Positions 26,365-53,914 of a stretch of 54,353 bases of DNA are shown in pieces. The stretch lies in the IMG/VR virus record IMGVR_UViG_3300034082_002556, one strand, 5' to 3'. The notes beneath the pieces were generated by a model. The model saw only the letters and a program-made list of their open reading frames with translations. It searched no databases and was not told the origin of the DNA. Each line of letters starts with the position of its first letter. Positions within the stretch are counted from its first letter, which is position 1. Made by a program: the position numbers and the translations under genes. Source of the stretch: an uncultured virus (IMG/VR IMGVR_UViG_3300034082_002556) (lineage: Duplodnaviria > Heunggongvirae > Uroviricota > Caudoviricetes).

Positions 26365-26634
26365 CTACAAATAGCGCAACTGGAACCAACTTTGTGCAGA
26401 TTCATTGAAGAAATCTAGATGAATTTGAGCTTGATAGTACATTCTGTTTGGGTCTTTGGCTATGTTGGCAGACGCCAGCCCCTGGTGATTGCGCCAGGTG
26501 AATCCAAGTTCTCGACGCATGACCCAACTGATTCTAATTGTTGGGCCGTGATTGTCTACTAGTTTCTGAAGAATTGGTTCCCAATCTGCTGGATCATGGA
26601 ACACAATAAGGTTACGTTTTACGGTGACTTTCAT
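26365..26634 (-). CDS. hypothetical protein
   Basis: 89-aa ORF overlapping ACP. Confidence 0.7.
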   Translation of the reverse strand: MKVTVKRNLIVFHDPADWEPILQKLVDNHGPTIRISWVMRRELGFTWRNHQGLASANIAKDPNRMYYQAQIHLDFFNESAQSWFQLRYL

Positions 26635-26857
26635 GTTTGCTCTGAATAAGGTTTACAATTTGTTGCACAGTTCTTGCGTTCTCGTATTCGTGTTCTTCAA
26701 TTGCAATTTTAAATTTTGTTTCAATCTCCATCACCAGCTCAATCAAGTCCAGTGAGTCGGCCCCCAAGTCAGCTACAATCTCGTGGTGTTCGTGAATTTT
26801 GCTTTCAGGAATTCCCAGTTGAATAGAAATAATTTTTTTAAGTTCAGATATAATCAT
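26612..26857 (-). CDS. acpP: acyl carrier protein
   Basis: DLGADSLDLIELVM phosphopantetheine attachment motif, 81 aa, acidic. Confidence 0.9.
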   Translation of the reverse strand: MIISELKKIISIQLGIPESKIHEHHEIVADLGADSLDLIELVMEIETKFKIAIEEHEYENARTVQQIVNLIQSKHESHRKT

Positions 26858-26862
26858 GATAG

Positions 26863-27591
26863 TTAGGTGATATGTCGTTGTTGTTCAGAATAGACTCGAC
26901 TCATATTGGAGCCATTGATGCTGACCACTTCCCCTGGCATGGTTCCGCGTCGAATGTATAGGCATTCGTGCACAAAGGTGTCTTTGCCAAATGTTGCACT
27001 GGTCTTGAGAGCCTTGACATTGACCCCCAGGAAACAGTTTTCTTCAAAGTGAATGTCACCACCAATCGAGCAAAATCTTTGCAGTACTGAATTACGGTCA
27101 ACTCTGGTGTGATGACCCACACAAGTAAAACTGTAAATCATAGAGTAATCACCCAGTACCACACCTGGCTCAATCTGCGCAAGACCATCAACAAACACCC
27201 CACGACCAATAGTGGCGCTACGGCTAACATGGGCCGTGGGGTCAATCAAGCTAATGACTGACAGTTGCTTACTATCCAGTAGATTGATCAGCCTCTGTCG
27301 CTTTTCTCTATTGCGAGTGGTAACAGCATCCTTTTCGGGAGCCCAGTTTGTAGCACAAAAGAAATTGAAGTTGCGTTGGTAGTAATTCAGTTTGGTGTCT
27401 TGCTCAAACGCATCTTCTGTGTCGATAACAGGCACTCCATACAATTCAGATTTGTTGCCAAAGTAATCGCTGTCAATACAACCATGGATTTGTATACCCA
27501 ACACATTGCACATGTCGGTGTACTTTTCCATGGTCATACTTGACCCCACCAATATCAACGGTCTGTCAGTTGTATTAATGTGTTGGGTCAT
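26863..27591 (-). CDS. left-handed beta-helix acetyltransferase (NeuD/PglD-like)
   Basis: LIDPTAHVSRSATIGRGVFV hexapeptide repeats, VGHH. Confidence 0.8.
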   Translation of the reverse strand: MTQHINTTDRPLILVGSSMTMEKYTDMCNVLGIQIHGCIDSDYFGNKSELYGVPVIDTEDAFEQDTKLNYYQRNFNFFCATNWAPEKDAVTTRNREKRQRLINLLDSKQLSVISLIDPTAHVSRSATIGRGVFVDGLAQIEPGVVLGDYSMIYSFTCVGHHTRVDRNSVLQRFCSIGGDIHFEENCFLGVNVKALKTSATFGKDTFVHECLYIRRGTMPGEVVSINGSNMSRVYSEQQRHIT

Positions 27592-28633
27592 AAACAGTGT
27601 AAGAACTCTGTTGAGTTTTTTCAAAATAGTCTTTGCGATCTGCATCAACCAACTTGGCAAATTCGTCGTGTGTGTAAATTTCCCCGTTGTATCTCACCGT
27701 GGTTGCAGGTTGCACATGCGGGTATACCTTGTTTAGATAAGACACCACACGAGCCATGGTGCGTTTGTCTCCATCTTGCACATTGGTTGGTCGAGCATGC
27801 AGTGTAATTTCTTGATCCATGAACACAATTTGTCCGTCAGCCCAATTTTGGGTGTATACATAGCGATCCTGATACACATGACGTTTCAATTCAGACATCA
27901 CACGCTGACTTTCTTCTTGACTCATGCCAACAAAACCGTCAAATGTATGACTGGGGATTTTCATACCCGACAGTCCTGTAACAGTTTCTCGGTACAGCCG
28001 AGTCTCCATGCCATCCAACGGAGTCATGTTGTAACGCAGAATCAAGCTCTGTGTTTTGTTCAGTCCAGGGGCCATGAGATTGTCAGTCCATTTGTGTCGA
28101 ACCACAAGCTCTTTGACCATGCTACGCATATCACTGCTGAGAGACTCATATGCATCGTGTGTGCACAAAAATGTGGTTTGGCTGTTGGCCGTGTCGCTTA
28201 CACTCTGCAGGCCAATAATGCGTTGTGCATCATCGGATGAACATTGGTCACTGTGCCAGTCTAGTTCACCATTGGTAAACAATCCAGTAGGACGCCCGTG
28301 ATCATCATTCTTGTAGCTGACCAGGGTCACTGCCGCTGATAGGTCTTTTACATTCTTGGCAACAAATCCCAAGTTGAGCAACAGTTCGCGCCAATGCCGA
28401 CCTTGCAGTTTACTTTCAAGCACGTAGTTATGCATGATTGCTCGGCTAGGGTCTCCCCATTGCATCATTACATTGAACAATCTTTCTGTGGGAATTTTTT
28501 GATTGACAAATACAATGCATTGTCCGGCAACAAGCCTACCAAGTTCAAATATTTCATCATCTGAATTTAGGTCAATGTCGTATACTTCTACTCCAACTGT
28601 GGAGTCGTAATTTTTAAGTGAGCGAGTTTTCAT
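27575..28633 (-). CDS. TauD/TfdA-family Fe(II)/2OG dioxygenase
   Basis: GVEVYDIDL, WHSD (HxD), W..G.IVFMD...LHAR, R.M.R. Confidence 0.85.
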   Translation of the reverse strand: MKTRSLKNYDSTVGVEVYDIDLNSDDEIFELGRLVAGQCIVFVNQKIPTERLFNVMMQWGDPSRAIMHNYVLESKLQGRHWRELLLNLGFVAKNVKDLSAAVTLVSYKNDDHGRPTGLFTNGELDWHSDQCSSDDAQRIIGLQSVSDTANSQTTFLCTHDAYESLSSDMRSMVKELVVRHKWTDNLMAPGLNKTQSLILRYNMTPLDGMETRLYRETVTGLSGMKIPSHTFDGFVGMSQEESQRVMSELKRHVYQDRYVYTQNWADGQIVFMDQEITLHARPTNVQDGDKRTMARVVSYLNKVYPHVQPATTVRYNGEIYTHDEFAKLVDADRKDYFEKTQQSSYTVYDPTH

Positions 28634-28639
28634 CGTGTT

Positions 28640-28775
28640 TTCCTTTGTTGTGATTTAGGGCTAGTGAACGTTTTGTCCACACACGGTAGGCGTTCTGTAT
28701 TAATAATACAGTAAAGACATCGATATGTCAAGCGTCTTGGAGATCCGACGTCGGTCTGATACCGGCGTTGCTGAC
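28640..28775 (-). promoter_or_regulatory. candidate structured 5' leader RNA
   Basis: Several short helices between a TAAATA element (28778-28783) and the dioxygenase RBS. Confidence 0.4.
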
Positions 28776-28806
28776 TATATTTATTCTGTCAATTAATTTA
28801 ATCAAG

Positions 28807-28828
28807 AAAAAGCCCACCGAAGTGGGCT
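28807..28828 (-). terminator. intrinsic terminator after tmRNA
   Basis: AGCCCAC-TTCG-GTGGGCT followed by a T run. Confidence 0.85.
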
Positions 28829-28829
28829 T

Positions 28830-29152
28830 CTAGAGTTTCTGTTACGAGGTATGTCTTACCCTAAGCTGAGTTTAGGCAGCTAATGCGAACTGTGAGTCGT
28901 TTGCGTTTACTTTGTTTTGCTTCTTCGACCGAGTTACCCCAATCCTACGGCTTCTACATTGCCGGACTGTCCATTTCAATACTCTTGACCCAATCGATCC
29001 TGTGTCAGGCCCATCATAAAAAGATTGCTACTATTACTATGAAAATTAATATTGCTAACAATGATGGTAATCTCACGTAATCTCCTTATGGTGGACCTGG
29101 CGGGCACTGCCCCCGCGTCTTGAATCCTTTTCTGTCTACTTCATACAGTCTT
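28830..29152 (-). ncRNA. ssrA: circularly permuted (two-piece) tmRNA
   Basis: T-arm+CAGGTCC-A-CCA (ends 29089) precedes the 5' GGGCCTG (29012); G3.U70 pair; tag ANDSQFALAA* at 28904-28872; outer ends approximate. Confidence 0.92.
29014..29076 (-). CDS. putative 20-aa hydrophobic peptide in the tmRNA intervening segment
   Basis: TAAGGAG-N5-GTG, MRLPSLLAILIFIVIVAIFL*. Confidence 0.45.
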   Translation of the reverse strand: MRLPSLLAILIFIVIVAIFL

Positions 29153-29161
29153 AACTTTTAT

Positions 29162-29338
29162 TTATTCTTCAACTCCGAAATGTGCCAGTATAATGTCTGC
29201 ATCGTAGTCTGCCAAGCAAAGTTCAGCACATTTCTTCACAATCAACTCGGCGAACTTTTCAGCATGGTCCACGCCCATCCATTTGCCACTAGTATCAGTG
29301 CCTGCTTGATTCATTAGTTGTTTAATTCGTTCGTTCAT
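29162..29338 (-). CDS. small hypothetical protein (58 aa, not in ORF track)
   Basis: MNERIKQLMNQAG...EKFAELIVKKC...HFGVEE; GGAG upstream. Confidence 0.7.
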   Translation of the reverse strand: MNERIKQLMNQAGTDTSGKWMGVDHAEKFAELIVKKCAELCLADYDADIILAHFGVEE

Positions 29339-29369
29339 CTATCAACTCCGGAATAGGTTAACAGAATCA

Positions 29370-29633
29370 TTATCGACCGGGAAGGCCAGGTGTGGCACTG
29401 TGTCGTTCTTTGCGTGTTCTTCGATCTTCCACATGCGTGGATTTTAGCAAAAGCTCACGCCCAATTTTGCCTTGTTCAATTTCTTCCAGAGCCTTGACAA
29501 GATTGCCCGAATTGCTGACAACAGTTGGTTGATACCCCACAGAAAGTTCTCTAGCACGCCTGGATGCAATCAGCACCAGGTCGTACCGGTTGCCCACTGC
29601 ACTTACTGCTGATTCACTGGTGTATCTGGCCAT
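29370..29633 (-). CDS. rpoZ: RNA polymerase omega subunit homolog
   Basis: MARYT...GNRYDLVLIASRRAREL...ALEEIEQGKI. Confidence 0.85.
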   Translation of the reverse strand: MARYTSESAVSAVGNRYDLVLIASRRARELSVGYQPTVVSNSGNLVKALEEIEQGKIGRELLLKSTHVEDRRTRKERHSATPGLPGR

Positions 29634-29663
29634 AAAATTTTCCTTTTGTTAAACTATGTGTGT

Positions 29664-29692
29664 ATTATAGCAAATTATTCATTTGTTGTCAA
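29664..29692 (-). promoter_or_regulatory. sigma70-type promoter
   Basis: TTGACA-17-TATAAT upstream of rpoZ. Confidence 0.85.
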
Positions 29693-31252
29693 CGGCATGA
29701 TACCCAGTCGGCGATGCAACAACTCCTTGTATTCAATTGCTCGCTGTTGTTTTCTAACATCAACACTGTGCCAATCAAAATCTTTCATTGGTTTGTTCAG
29801 AGCAAAGTCCAAATCAAACCCAAGCCCGGCAATTTCAAATGCGGCCAAATTGCTTACTTTTCTATTACCGTCACGAATGCCCTGAGCCATTAACTCGTCA
29901 GCCATGCGTTTGCAATCTTCAAAGGTGGTAAATTGATTTTTCCACAAGTACCGATTGTTGTCTTGTGTTCCAGTGATTTCGTATCCGTATTTTTCTGGGT
30001 AACGATCGAACTCACTTGTGTAGGCTAGATTTTGTTGACTTAGATAAAATGGAAGCACCACCCAGGAGTCTAGTGGTATATCTTTGTTCAGCAAAGCCTG
30101 TGCAGTACGTTCCATGCTGGCAATTTCTTCTCCAGGCAATCCAAAGATAAATGTACCATGCAACAGAATACGATCACCGTATTTTTCTTTGCAAATGCGC
30201 AAGGTATCAATCAGCTTTTGTCTTGATCCACCTTTACCAATCAACTTGGCAGTGGCAGGGTCAAGTGTTTCAATACCGAAAAAACATCCACGACATCCAC
30301 TGTCAAACAACAAGTCAATGGTATGAGGGTGAGCTGCCAGCAGATCTAATCTAGCAAATGCCCAAAACTCTAAATCAAACGGCAGTGATTTAGACACACG
30401 ATGTATCATCTCTACTTTTTCTTGACTGTCATTAAATGTGTCATCGGAAAACAAGTACCTTGTGACTCCGAATTGCTGATAATTATCAATCAGTTCGTTG
30501 CGCAGAGTTTCTTCATGCTTGATGTGATCTAATTTTTTCTTGCCGTTCAAGGGATAACTGCAAAATCCACATCGAAATATACAACCTCGACTGATCTCGA
30601 TTACCAATGTTTCCCCGGGCAAGATAGCATCCTGAGGTTGATATTTCATAACACTGCTGTTAAAGTCGTATGATTCGGCCGCTCGGTCATCCACTAGCGT
30701 GGTTCCAAACAAACTGCGCCGAGACTTTTCAAGTGGAGTGCCTTTGTGCAAATGATCAGCTAGATTTACTATGGCAACATCGCCGTAACCAATCACAGCA
30801 TAATCGTAATCTCGTATGTAAGATAAGTCTTGTGCATCTGGTCCACCAAGCACCCATTGACAATGCGGGTTGATATTGGAAACTAGCTCACGTAGTTCAC
30901 GGTTGTACTTGATACCATGTGGTAGAAACGCACCGGGCTCTCGCTCGGTATACTTCTGTCCACCGCGTTCGTGATCCAGCACGTCCGGGGTGTCAAGTTG
31001 AATGGGATTTTCTATTGACTGATAAAAGAAAGAATTAACTCCCACAAACAATGTTTGTTGATTAACTGTTTGTTGGAGTATGTTCTTGATTTCTTCAATT
31101 GAAAACACATGCAAGTGATTTATCACTAGCACTTCGTACCCAGCCGCTCTAAGCTCGCATGCAACTTTGTGAGAGCCCAGTGGCTTAGACAGCAACAACA
31201 CATCTGTGCGATCAGTAAGGATTACAACATTTGGTTTGTGGTTGTCTAGCAT
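29675..31252 (-). CDS. B12-binding-type (class B-like) radical SAM protein
   Basis: LGGP, EISRGCIFRCGFC, DDTF, GIET, FIFGLPGE. Confidence 0.85.
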   Translation of the reverse strand: MLDNHKPNVVILTDRTDVLLLSKPLGSHKVACELRAAGYEVLVINHLHVFSIEEIKNILQQTVNQQTLFVGVNSFFYQSIENPIQLDTPDVLDHERGGQKYTEREPGAFLPHGIKYNRELRELVSNINPHCQWVLGGPDAQDLSYIRDYDYAVIGYGDVAIVNLADHLHKGTPLEKSRRSLFGTTLVDDRAAESYDFNSSVMKYQPQDAILPGETLVIEISRGCIFRCGFCSYPLNGKKKLDHIKHEETLRNELIDNYQQFGVTRYLFSDDTFNDSQEKVEMIHRVSKSLPFDLEFWAFARLDLLAAHPHTIDLLFDSGCRGCFFGIETLDPATAKLIGKGGSRQKLIDTLRICKEKYGDRILLHGTFIFGLPGEEIASMERTAQALLNKDIPLDSWVVLPFYLSQQNLAYTSEFDRYPEKYGYEITGTQDNNRYLWKNQFTTFEDCKRMADELMAQGIRDGNRKVSNLAAFEIAGLGFDLDFALNKPMKDFDWHSVDVRKQQRAIEYKELLHRRLGIMPLTTNE

Positions 31253-35361: not shown

Positions 35362-35362
35362 A

Positions 35363-35515
35363 TTAACTTGCTACAATTTTTGGAATGTATGGCACTGCTC
35401 TAGGACCACCATACAGTTGTTCAAAAAGTCGTTTAGCCTCTTGCGGGGTGTCCGCATAGATACGCTTCTTTTCTTCACCTTGTGGTGTTCTTACAGTTGT
35501 TTCATACATTGGCAT
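35363..35515 (-). CDS. small hypothetical protein (50 aa, not in ORF track)
   Basis: MPMYETTVRTPQGEEKKRIYADTPQEAKRLFEQLYGGPRAVPYIPKIVAS; AAGGA upstream. Confidence 0.65.
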   Translation of the reverse strand: MPMYETTVRTPQGEEKKRIYADTPQEAKRLFEQLYGGPRAVPYIPKIVAS

Positions 35516-35529
35516 ATTGTATCCTTGAA

Positions 35530-35777: not shown

Positions 35778-35878
35778 ATATAGAAACACACTAACGAACC
35801 TGGCTGTGGGGATCGAACCCACTAAATCCCGTAGCACCAGCAGTACTGCTACGATACTGGTTAATGTGTTTTTATATG
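35777..35878 (-). ncRNA. stem-enclosed tRNA-like element (T-arm, no D arm)
   Basis: 19-bp closing stem, hairpin CGTAGCA/TGCTACG, T-arm GTGGG-TTCGATC-CCCAC. Confidence 0.55.
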
Positions 35879-38343: not shown

Positions 38344-38350
38344 ATAAACT

Positions 38351-38425
38351 TGGTGGAGACCGTCGGTATCGAACCGATCTAGACACGAATCTTGCAAGGA
38401 TCCGCCGTAGCCCTCTACTGCCCCC
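38351..38425 (-). tRNA. tRNA-Ala(TGC), atypical D arm
   Basis: G3.U70, anticodon arm, T arm, CCA; shortened D arm. Confidence 0.78.
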
Positions 38426-38510
38426 ATTATAGAAACACACTTAAACAGTCCTTCAACGTTAGTCGCTATCTCCCTTACTATCGGGCGGATCTGTATGTGT
38501 TTCTATAATG
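38425..38510 (-). ncRNA. stem-enclosed spacer element
   Basis: Perfect 15-bp CATTATAGAAACACA/TGTGTTTCTATAATG. Confidence 0.5.
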
Positions 38511-38587
38511 GCTCCGCATCTGGGTAACGATCCCAGCTAATCATTGATTAACAGTCAAGCCCATGCACCATGCTCGGGTTCTGCGGA
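38509..38587 (-). tRNA. tRNA-Asn(GTT)
   Basis: Cloverleaf, G73, CCA, T-loop ATCGTTA. Confidence 0.85.
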
Positions 38588-38596
38588 ATAAAATTT

Positions 38597-41445: not shown

Positions 41446-41452
41446 ACAATCT

Positions 41453-41544
41453 TGGCGGAAAGCAGAGGAGTCGAACCCCATCCCATTTCTGAGAACCTGG
41501 TTTTCAAGGCCAGTCGCAGGACCATCCCCGCTGCATTACTTTCC
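41453..41544 (-). tRNA. tRNA-Ser(TGA)
   Basis: Long V-arm, G73, CCA. Confidence 0.9.
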
Positions 41545-41553
41545 ATTAACTAT

Positions 41554-53822: not shown

Positions 53823-53914
53823 TGGTACCTCCGCCGGGACTCGAACCCAGATGAACCAATTATCTGTTGCTTACGGGATATAAATCCGCCGTTTTACCAT
53901 TAAACTACAGAGGC
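53823..53914 (-). tRNA. tRNA with TAT anticodon and long variable arm
   Basis: Acceptor, D and T arms, CCA; loop TT-TAT-AT; ~20-nt V region. Confidence 0.75.

What the first reader, a model, noticed from the sequence alone, without database searches (positions are those of the whole stretch)
29013..29088. The tmRNA intervening segment encodes a type-I-toxin-like membrane peptide
Seen: the 76-nt segment between the CCA and G1 is almost entirely TAAGGAG-N5-GTG plus MRLPSLLAILIFIVIVAIFL*, and its ends pair (UAAGGAGAUU/AAUCUUUUUA), hiding the RBS. Known: this segment is normally excised and discarded; Ibs-type toxins are 18-19-aa hydrophobic peptides with structure-occluded RBSs. Inference: a peptide whose expression is tied to tmRNA processing. 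I know of no description of this arrangement.
Basis: partly seen in the sequence, partly recalled or inferred. Interest (0 to 1): 0.75.

Follow-up and report, generated by a model that had tools for sequence, protein, structure and literature searches.

The report
Membrane peptide gene inside tmRNA spacer
The short piece cut out when this lake phage's two-piece ribosome-rescue RNA (tmRNA) matures carries what is very probably a real gene for a 20-residue membrane peptide, one of many small genes that related phages swap into this spot, but nothing marks it as a toxin of the Ibs type.

Summary
Confirmed. A permuted tmRNA (Rfam RF04321, 106 bits) has a 76-nt intervening segment (IVS) filled by an RBS, GTG and 20 codons, 15 of them consecutively hydrophobic. 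The ORF is very probably a gene. At most 1 of 20,000 end-preserving shuffles matched it. A lake-DNA variant differs only by GTG to ATG. A diverged homologue keeps the frame. All 43 of 43 unique short AAGGAG-led phage tmRNA IVSs encode 20-24-aa hydrophobic peptides, with dN/dS about 0.1 in the two best-conserved subfamilies but 0.7-1.0 in two others.

The toxin reading is not supported. The RBS-hiding end stem is generic (161 of 193 unbiased IVSs; 120 of 130 lacking an RBS). There is no Ibs match, no Sib hit and no antisense promoter. Five IVSs with identical tmRNA flanks carry unrelated contents, so the IVS is a swappable slot and the peptide is dispensable. Translation is not shown. This scan found other IVS genes on other phage DNA before; my paper searches found no description of it.

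The parts
29014..29076 (-). IVS ORF: 20 aa, GTG start (ATG in a natural variant), residues 6-20 all hydrophobic, one Arg at position 2, stop TGA one base before G1
   Evidence: start variant; homologue
29082..29087 (-). Shine-Dalgarno AAGGAG, 5 nt before the start; also the 5' arm of the IVS closing stem
29017..29026 (-). 3' arm of the IVS closing stem (anti-SD), overlapping the last codons of the ORF
29013..29088 (-). Intervening segment of the permuted tmRNA gene (76 nt), a swappable cassette
29089..29150 (-). tmRNA acceptor piece (T arm, 3' acceptor strand, encoded CCA); its true 5' end is probably a little further upstream
   Evidence: RF04321, 106.1 bits
28872..29012 (-). tmRNA coding piece from G1 to the tag stop (continues to the terminator)
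28872..28904 (-). Tag reading frame, 10 codons ending Ala-Leu-Ala-Ala, then TAA
29187..29215 (-). Sigma-70-like promoter candidate (10 of 12) just upstream of the acceptor piece, inside the upstream 58-aa ORF
   Evidence: consensus match only; 4 sites found against 2.5 expected
28808..28831 (-). Intrinsic-terminator-like hairpin closing the tmRNA transcript

Best explanation
The IVS of this jumbo-phage two-piece tmRNA gene behaves like a spacer between two tRNA genes. It is a stem-closed cassette between an encoded CCA and the next G1 that phages exchange freely, and here it holds a real gene for a 20-aa single-helix membrane peptide. The precursor doubles as its mRNA. The SD is partly free while the IVS is being transcribed, is locked once the closing stem and tRNA-like domain form, and loosens again if the cut-out IVS survives, so output should be low and brief (inferred from folding). 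The conserved terminal TGAT of all IVSs supplies the stop codon. The peptide most likely inserts in the host inner membrane as an accessory microprotein, modulating a membrane protein or membrane state during infection. It is dispensable for tmRNA function and is not part of a toxin-antitoxin pair. Shown: anatomy, coding-type conservation, exchangeability, generic stem. Inferred: translation, timing, membrane insertion, function.
For: Chance test: 0-1 of 20,000 end-preserving shuffles. In lake run X15, a 116-nt contig over 28993-29108 has one difference, 29076 C>T, which turns the GTG into ATG; run X18 holds the same stretch with no difference. Homologue L405/L412/L416/L418 (one unique IVS, 73 nt, ATG start, 19 aa) sits in a different tmRNA backbone: best of 47 peptides compared, BLOSUM62 score 44, 0 of 2000 shuffles; 31 of 45 nt identical over codons 2-16 (171 of 100,000 codon shuffles); 3 synonymous changes, a one-codon length difference, and 8 of 9 replacements among hydrophobic or small residues. 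43 of 43 unique tmRNA IVSs of 76-89 nt picked only by starting NAAGGAG (own included) have an ORF ending in the terminal TGA, GRAVY 1.74-2.8. dN/dS is 0.12 in 13 sequences of the 24-aa subfamily (differences by codon position 315/144/637) and 0.10 in 4 of a 22-aa subfamily. In unbiased sets, slot-filling ORFs occur in 33 of 48 IVSs with an SD-like start against 19 of 130 without, and hydrophobic ones in 15 of 48 against 1 of 130. Five other unique IVSs have flanks identical to the window's over 85 nt but unrelated content; 9 of the 26 closest backbones carry an SD-led ORF. The window's own tRNA cluster has the same RBS-ORF-TAAT-next tRNA layout at 35362-35529. P(SD paired) is 0.28-0.46 until 70 nt of the IVS are made and 0.98-1.00 afterwards; opening the ribosome site costs 20.3 kcal/mol in the precursor and 6.6 in the excised IVS.
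Against: There is no expression evidence: the two RNA runs laid do not cover the IVS interior. Only one diverged homologue and one point variant of this exact peptide were found. The other exact copy (L134/L203/L223) is 100% identical over 6024 bp and not independent. After 47 comparisons the DNA-level homology to L405 is borderline (0.0017 x 47, about 0.08), and 9 of 15 aligned residues differ. Two subfamilies ending His-Val-Phe/Tyr give dN/dS 0.68 (5 sequences) and 1.0 (3 sequences); two small ones give 0.33 and 0.46; pairs are not independent. With a looser RBS pattern, 2 of 7 new unique tmRNA IVSs had no hydrophobic ORF. The GTG start is itself 50-89% paired in the folding models. No target or function is known.
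Confidence: 0.7

Rival explanations
1. Ibs-like toxin: the peptide depolarises the host membrane, and the closing stem is a safety catch that keeps it off until processing (host takeover or lysis aid, without an antisense antitoxin).
For: Size (20 aa) and 15 consecutive hydrophobic residues fit IbsC, a 19-aa peptide that keeps toxicity with 15 residues and at least 10 hydrophobic ones and lacks the cationic C-terminus of most type I toxins (PMC8309996, passages). The SD is sequestered, a feature of type I toxin mRNAs (PMC8594479, passages).
Against: The stem is generic: at least 8 bp in 161 of 193 unbiased IVSs and 120 of 130 without SD, against 2.5% of shuffles. It also hides the SD in 22 of 23 long IVSs at P above 0.9, many with soluble cargo. 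No PF13956 match in the own genome, and none among 42 family peptides. No antisense promoter (0 of 4 sites on the + strand; 3 of 41 homologous loci against 8.3 expected). No Sib-family hit. Single copy in each of 5 large phage records.
Confidence: 0.12
2. Translation itself is the function: a ribosome loading on the IVS delays folding and cutting of the tmRNA precursor (leader-peptide-like control of tmRNA maturation), and the peptide is a by-product.
For: An initiating 30S would cover the CCA and acceptor strand, and a terminating ribosome would cover G1 (geometry; ribosome footprint sizes from general knowledge). Many unrelated ORFs fill the slot in the same register.
Against: 130 of 178 unbiased IVSs of 59 nt or more have no SD, so tmRNA matures without translation. 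Low dN/dS and strict hydrophobicity point to selection on the peptides themselves.
Confidence: 0.08
3. Not translated: a chance or decaying ORF in a U-rich spacer, like the Coxiella 23S rRNA IVS ORF that is not made in vivo.
For: The stop comes free with the conserved TGAT/TAAT end (172 of 193 IVSs). The SD is occluded. There is no RNA evidence. Precedent: PMC4990558 (abstract).
Against: Shuffle test, GTG/ATG polymorphism, frame-keeping homologue, 43 of 43 family pattern.
Confidence: 0.1

Closest known systems
Circularly permuted (two-piece) tmRNA genes, Rfam RF04321 / RF01849 / RF01850; phage example Methylophilales phage Melnitz (PMC9004378, passages)
   Same: Permuted gene order, encoded CCA, G1 with G-U acceptor pair, tag ending Ala-Ala, IVS absent from the mature RNA; common in aquatic phages (50 of 53 phage two-piece tmRNAs in that paper).
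   Different: Here the IVS is filled by an RBS-led ORF. The passages read of PMC11915505 mention only a tRNA-Ala gene and a repetitive element inside IVSs; PMC9004378 has no occurrence of 'intervening'.
Ibs/Sib type I toxin-antitoxin family (Pfam PF13956; PMC8309996 and PMC8594479, passages)
   Same: About 19-20 aa, single hydrophobic helix, SD sequestered by structure.
   Different: No profile match, no antisense RNA spanning the ORF, not an independent mRNA, single copy; the occluding stem is the generic IVS closing stem.
23S rRNA intervening sequences with the S23p ORF (Coxiella; PMC4990558, abstract only)
   Same: An ORF inside a stem-closed segment excised from a stable-RNA precursor.
   Different: That IVS is 428 nt, cut by RNase III, and its ORF is reported to be decaying and not made in vivo. 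Here the segment is 76 nt, probably released by tRNA-type processing, has a strong RBS, and its class shows purifying selection.
Small ORFs between tRNA genes in phage tRNA clusters (seen in this window; T4-like precedent recalled, not looked up)
   Same: RBS just after a tRNA 3' end, ORF filling the spacer, stop one base before the next 5' end.
   Different: The two flanks here are the two halves of one RNA that pair with each other, so ribosome loading competes with folding of the tRNA-like domain.

Membership tests
Permuted two-piece tmRNA gene | Acceptor piece before coding piece, tRNA-like domain, above Rfam gathering score | tested here: met
   RF04321 106.1 bits against cut-off 47, full model
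Permuted two-piece tmRNA gene | Tag reading frame ending in Ala-Ala | tested here: met
   10 codons, 28904-28872
Permuted two-piece tmRNA gene | IVS removed from the precursor in vivo | not testable with these tools
   Only contigs were available; RNA runs do not cover this IVS
Ibs/Sib type I toxin-antitoxin | 18-19-aa hydrophobic single-helix peptide | tested here: met
   20 aa, GRAVY 2.7; homologue 19 aa
Ibs/Sib type I toxin-antitoxin | Sequence match to the Ibs family profile | tested here: not met
   PF13956: no match at E <= 10 in the own genome, while the control rings over the cut-off in 1 of 14 known genomes; not among the 5 families hit by 42 peptides
Ibs/Sib type I toxin-antitoxin | Cis-antisense RNA spanning the whole ORF, with its own promoter (PMC8594479) | tested here: not met
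   No + strand promoter-like site in 28600-29800; 3 of 41 homologous loci against 8.3 expected; no Sib hit among 11 Rfam matches at E <= 10. Consensus scans only, so an unusual phage promoter is not excluded.
Ibs/Sib type I toxin-antitoxin | SD sequestered in the mRNA structure | tested here: met
   P(paired) 1.00, but not diagnostic: the stem is generic
Ibs/Sib type I toxin-antitoxin | Toxicity and membrane depolarisation | not testable with these tools
   Needs a bench assay
Protein-coding gene (microprotein) | Frame, start and stop kept in homologues; excess of synonymous change | tested here: met
   strong for the class, modest for this exact peptide (one homologue, one variant)
Protein-coding gene (microprotein) | Ribosome occupancy or detected product | not testable with these tools
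   No Ribo-seq or raw RNA reads were available

The most novel reading that the evidence does not exclude
Phage tmRNA precursors are processing-gated messengers. The tRNA-like fold silences the cargo gene, and cutting by tRNA-processing enzymes releases the IVS as a self-contained 76-nt mini-mRNA (SD at its 5' end, stop at its 3' end) whose membrane-active peptide is thus timed and dosed by tmRNA maturation. Jumbo phages exchange a library of such cassettes, including a large class of 19-24-aa membrane peptides.
Probability: 0.25. Interest if true: 0.8.

Novelty: new variant of a known kind. Interest (0 to 1): 0.55.

Why it matters
If translated, a segment treated as processing waste is a gene slot, and the tmRNA precursor is also an mRNA. 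These 19-24-codon genes lie inside an RNA-gene annotation and are probably too short for usual gene callers, so a class of phage membrane microproteins would be overlooked (48 unique IVSs collected here). The layout makes a direct test possible of how translation and tRNA-type processing compete on one transcript.

Tried and rejected
RNA evidence: of 24 runs listed, 4 were laid. RNA runs X19 and X20 (shares 0.08) hold related tmRNAs but have no cover over 29036-29059; contigs cannot show absence, so nothing follows. blastn of the tmRNA region against 50,697 annotated phage records: no match. Scan of bacterial and archaeal genomes with one RBS-led pattern: 42 hits, 1 passed my tmRNA-layout filter and does not look like a tmRNA; the pattern covers only one acceptor-stem type. 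Three narrow scans for closer relatives gave the identical record only or that record plus the L405 group among 28 hits, the rest chance. Pfam, PHROGs and NCBIfam scans of 42 peptides: nothing for the window's peptide, only weak scattered hits for others (best E 0.02-0.03). Pair counts on the IVS stem in 32 RBS-selected sequences are weakly informative, as the 5' arm was fixed by the search (91.5% paired). Homology of the window's peptide to the 21-24-aa acidic-start peptides is unproven: shared ends are constrained by the stem, and the next best score has p = 0.0045 of 47 comparisons. The 65-aa ORF on the + strand (28883-29080) was set aside as a shadow of the tmRNA; it was not tested further. 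Structure and complex prediction were not run (peptide under 30 aa). PMC516066 is not held.

Full report
Setting. The window lies in a 72,456-nt linear virus record estimated 21% complete, so probably a jumbo phage. It carries 30 ARAGORN tRNA genes, and the stretch is held at shares of 0.70-0.92 by 18 lake-water DNA runs. The host is unknown: the tmRNA scores 62 bits on the alphaproteobacterial model (cut-off 50) and 79.4 on the betaproteobacterial one (cut-off 84).

Observation. Rfam finds a full permuted tmRNA at 29150..28872 on the minus strand (RF04321, 106.1 bits). The acceptor piece ends in CCA at 29089, the IVS is 29088..29013, and G1 is 29012. The IVS is AAGGAG, a 5-nt spacer, GTG, 20 codons, TGA and one U. 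Its ends form a 10-bp stem. A promoter-like site (10 of 12) lies at 29215-29187 and a terminator-like hairpin at 28831-28808.

Is the ORF real? Four lines say very probably yes.
(1) Shuffling the interior while keeping the ends gives an open frame in 2-3% of 20,000 trials, and one as hydrophobic in 0-1. With the GTG also fixed, the figures are 19-24% and 1-14 of 20,000.
(2) In run X15 a 116-nt contig (depth 8.5) across the IVS has a single difference, which turns GTG into ATG; X18 has the window's form.
(3) A scan that did not specify the ORF interior found a 73-nt IVS in four records of another phage group. It encodes a 19-aa ATG-started peptide that is the best match among 47 (score 44, 0 of 2000 shuffles), with three synonymous changes, a one-codon length difference and conservative replacements. 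At DNA level the match is borderline after correction.
(4) The class is clearly coding. All 43 of 43 unique tmRNA IVSs of 76-89 nt selected only by an initial NAAGGAG (16 non-tmRNA loci dropped; own IVS included) encode 20-24-aa peptides of GRAVY 1.74-2.8 ending in the terminal TGA. dN/dS is 0.12 (13 sequences) and 0.10 (4) in two subfamilies, but 0.33, 0.46, 0.68 and 1.0 in four smaller ones. With a looser RBS pattern, 5 of 7 new unique IVSs were of this kind. Translation itself is not shown; the RNA runs laid did not cover this IVS.

What the slot is. From two scans anchored only on the T arm and acceptor (120 loci each, capped), 215 IVSs were extracted, 193 unique. They range from 26 to 373 nt. 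161 have an end stem of at least 8 bp (2.5% of shuffles do), including 120 of 130 with no SD, and 172 end in TGAT or TAAT. So the RBS-hiding stem and the stop codon are both features of the slot, not of this peptide. ORFs fill 33 of 48 IVSs with an SD-like start, and they range from membrane peptides to soluble proteins of about 120 aa whose SD is hidden equally. Five other IVSs whose flanks are identical to the window's over 85 nt have unrelated content, and only 9 of the 26 closest backbones carry an SD-led ORF. The IVS is therefore an exchangeable cassette and the peptide is dispensable for tmRNA. The window's tRNA cluster shows the same two spacer types: an ORF-filled one with its stop one base before the next tRNA (35362-35529) and a stem-closed non-coding one (35778-35876). 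The IVS behaves like an inter-tRNA spacer.

Mechanism (inferred). Two-piece tmRNA precursors are probably cut by RNase P and tRNase Z (PMC3985003, passages). Folding of growing transcripts leaves the SD 28-46% paired until about 70 nt of the IVS are made, then 98-100%. Opening the ribosome site costs 20.3 kcal/mol in the full precursor and 6.6 in the excised IVS. Two windows for translation follow: co-transcriptional, and after excision, when the IVS would be a complete mini-mRNA with an intact stop. A ribosome at the start would cover the CCA end and one at the stop would cover G1, so translation and maturation should exclude each other on one molecule. The product has a short polar N-terminus and 15 hydrophobic residues to the C-terminus; 5 of 48 family peptides have positive net charge, most are acidic or neutral. 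I think a low-dose inner-membrane accessory peptide is most likely (0.7 for this whole reading), ahead of an Ibs-like toxin (0.12), an untranslated ORF (0.10) and translation-only control (0.08).

Toxin membership. Ibs/Sib loci are defined by the peptide family and an antisense RNA spanning the ORF (PMC8594479, passages). PF13956 finds nothing in this genome or among 42 family peptides. No + strand promoter-like site occurs here, homologous loci show 3 of 41 against 8.3 expected, and Rfam shows no Sib. In 5 of 5 large phage records the peptide profile gives one significant match, at the tmRNA locus. It is not a member. It could still harm membranes: IbsC needs only 15 residues with 10 hydrophobic (PMC8309996, passages), which also means an overexpression assay would be weak evidence.

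Literature. Phage two-piece tmRNAs are published (PMC9004378, passages; PMC4131195, passages, lists phages with tmRNA genes). The 2025 database paper notes a tRNA gene and a repeat within IVSs, but no ORF in the 12 of 19 passages shown (PMC11915505; supplements not read and they may bear on this). The nearest analogue is the ORF in 23S rRNA IVSs (PMC4990558, abstract). Searches found no paper describing a coding tmRNA IVS; for most listed papers I saw only the listing. The library lacks most subscription papers, and PMC516066 was not held. This scan has reported other IVS genes on other phage and bacterial DNA; those notes are leads, not support, and the slot reading was re-tested here.

Verdict. 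A very probably real microprotein gene in a swappable tmRNA spacer: a new variant of a known kind, interest 0.55. The toxin label should be dropped until tested.

Noticed in passing
window 29370-29633 (-): Phage-encoded RNA polymerase omega/Rpb6-like protein (PF01192, E 3.5e-15) just upstream of the tmRNA, behind a 12 of 12 sigma-70-like promoter at 29692-29664.
   Followed up: no
window 35362-35529 (-): 50-aa ORF filling an inter-tRNA spacer with the same RBS-ORF-TAAT-next RNA geometry as the IVS.
   Followed up: partly
window 35778-35876 (-): Non-coding inter-tRNA spacer closed by a 12-bp stem like those of non-coding IVSs, with a T-loop-like motif inside; several non-coding IVSs (e.g. L004, L035) show such motifs too.
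   Followed up: no
window 38344-38596 and 41446-41553 (-): Spacers that appear to contain tRNA-like sequences ending in CCA that ARAGORN and Rfam did not call.
   Followed up: no
window 29069-29086 (-): An 8-nt direct repeat, two bases apart, flanks the start codon; possibly a small duplication, possibly chance.
   Followed up: no
L053, L050, L088, L017, L325, L029: IVSs of 220-373 nt holding 69-120-aa ORFs, showing that the slot takes sizeable genes.
   Followed up: no
window 26612-31252 (-): Acyl-carrier protein, TauD-type dioxygenase and B12-binding radical SAM genes flank the tmRNA.
   Followed up: no
window 53823-53914 (-): tRNA called Ile(TAT) of 92 nt, an unusual anticodon and length.
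   Followed up: no
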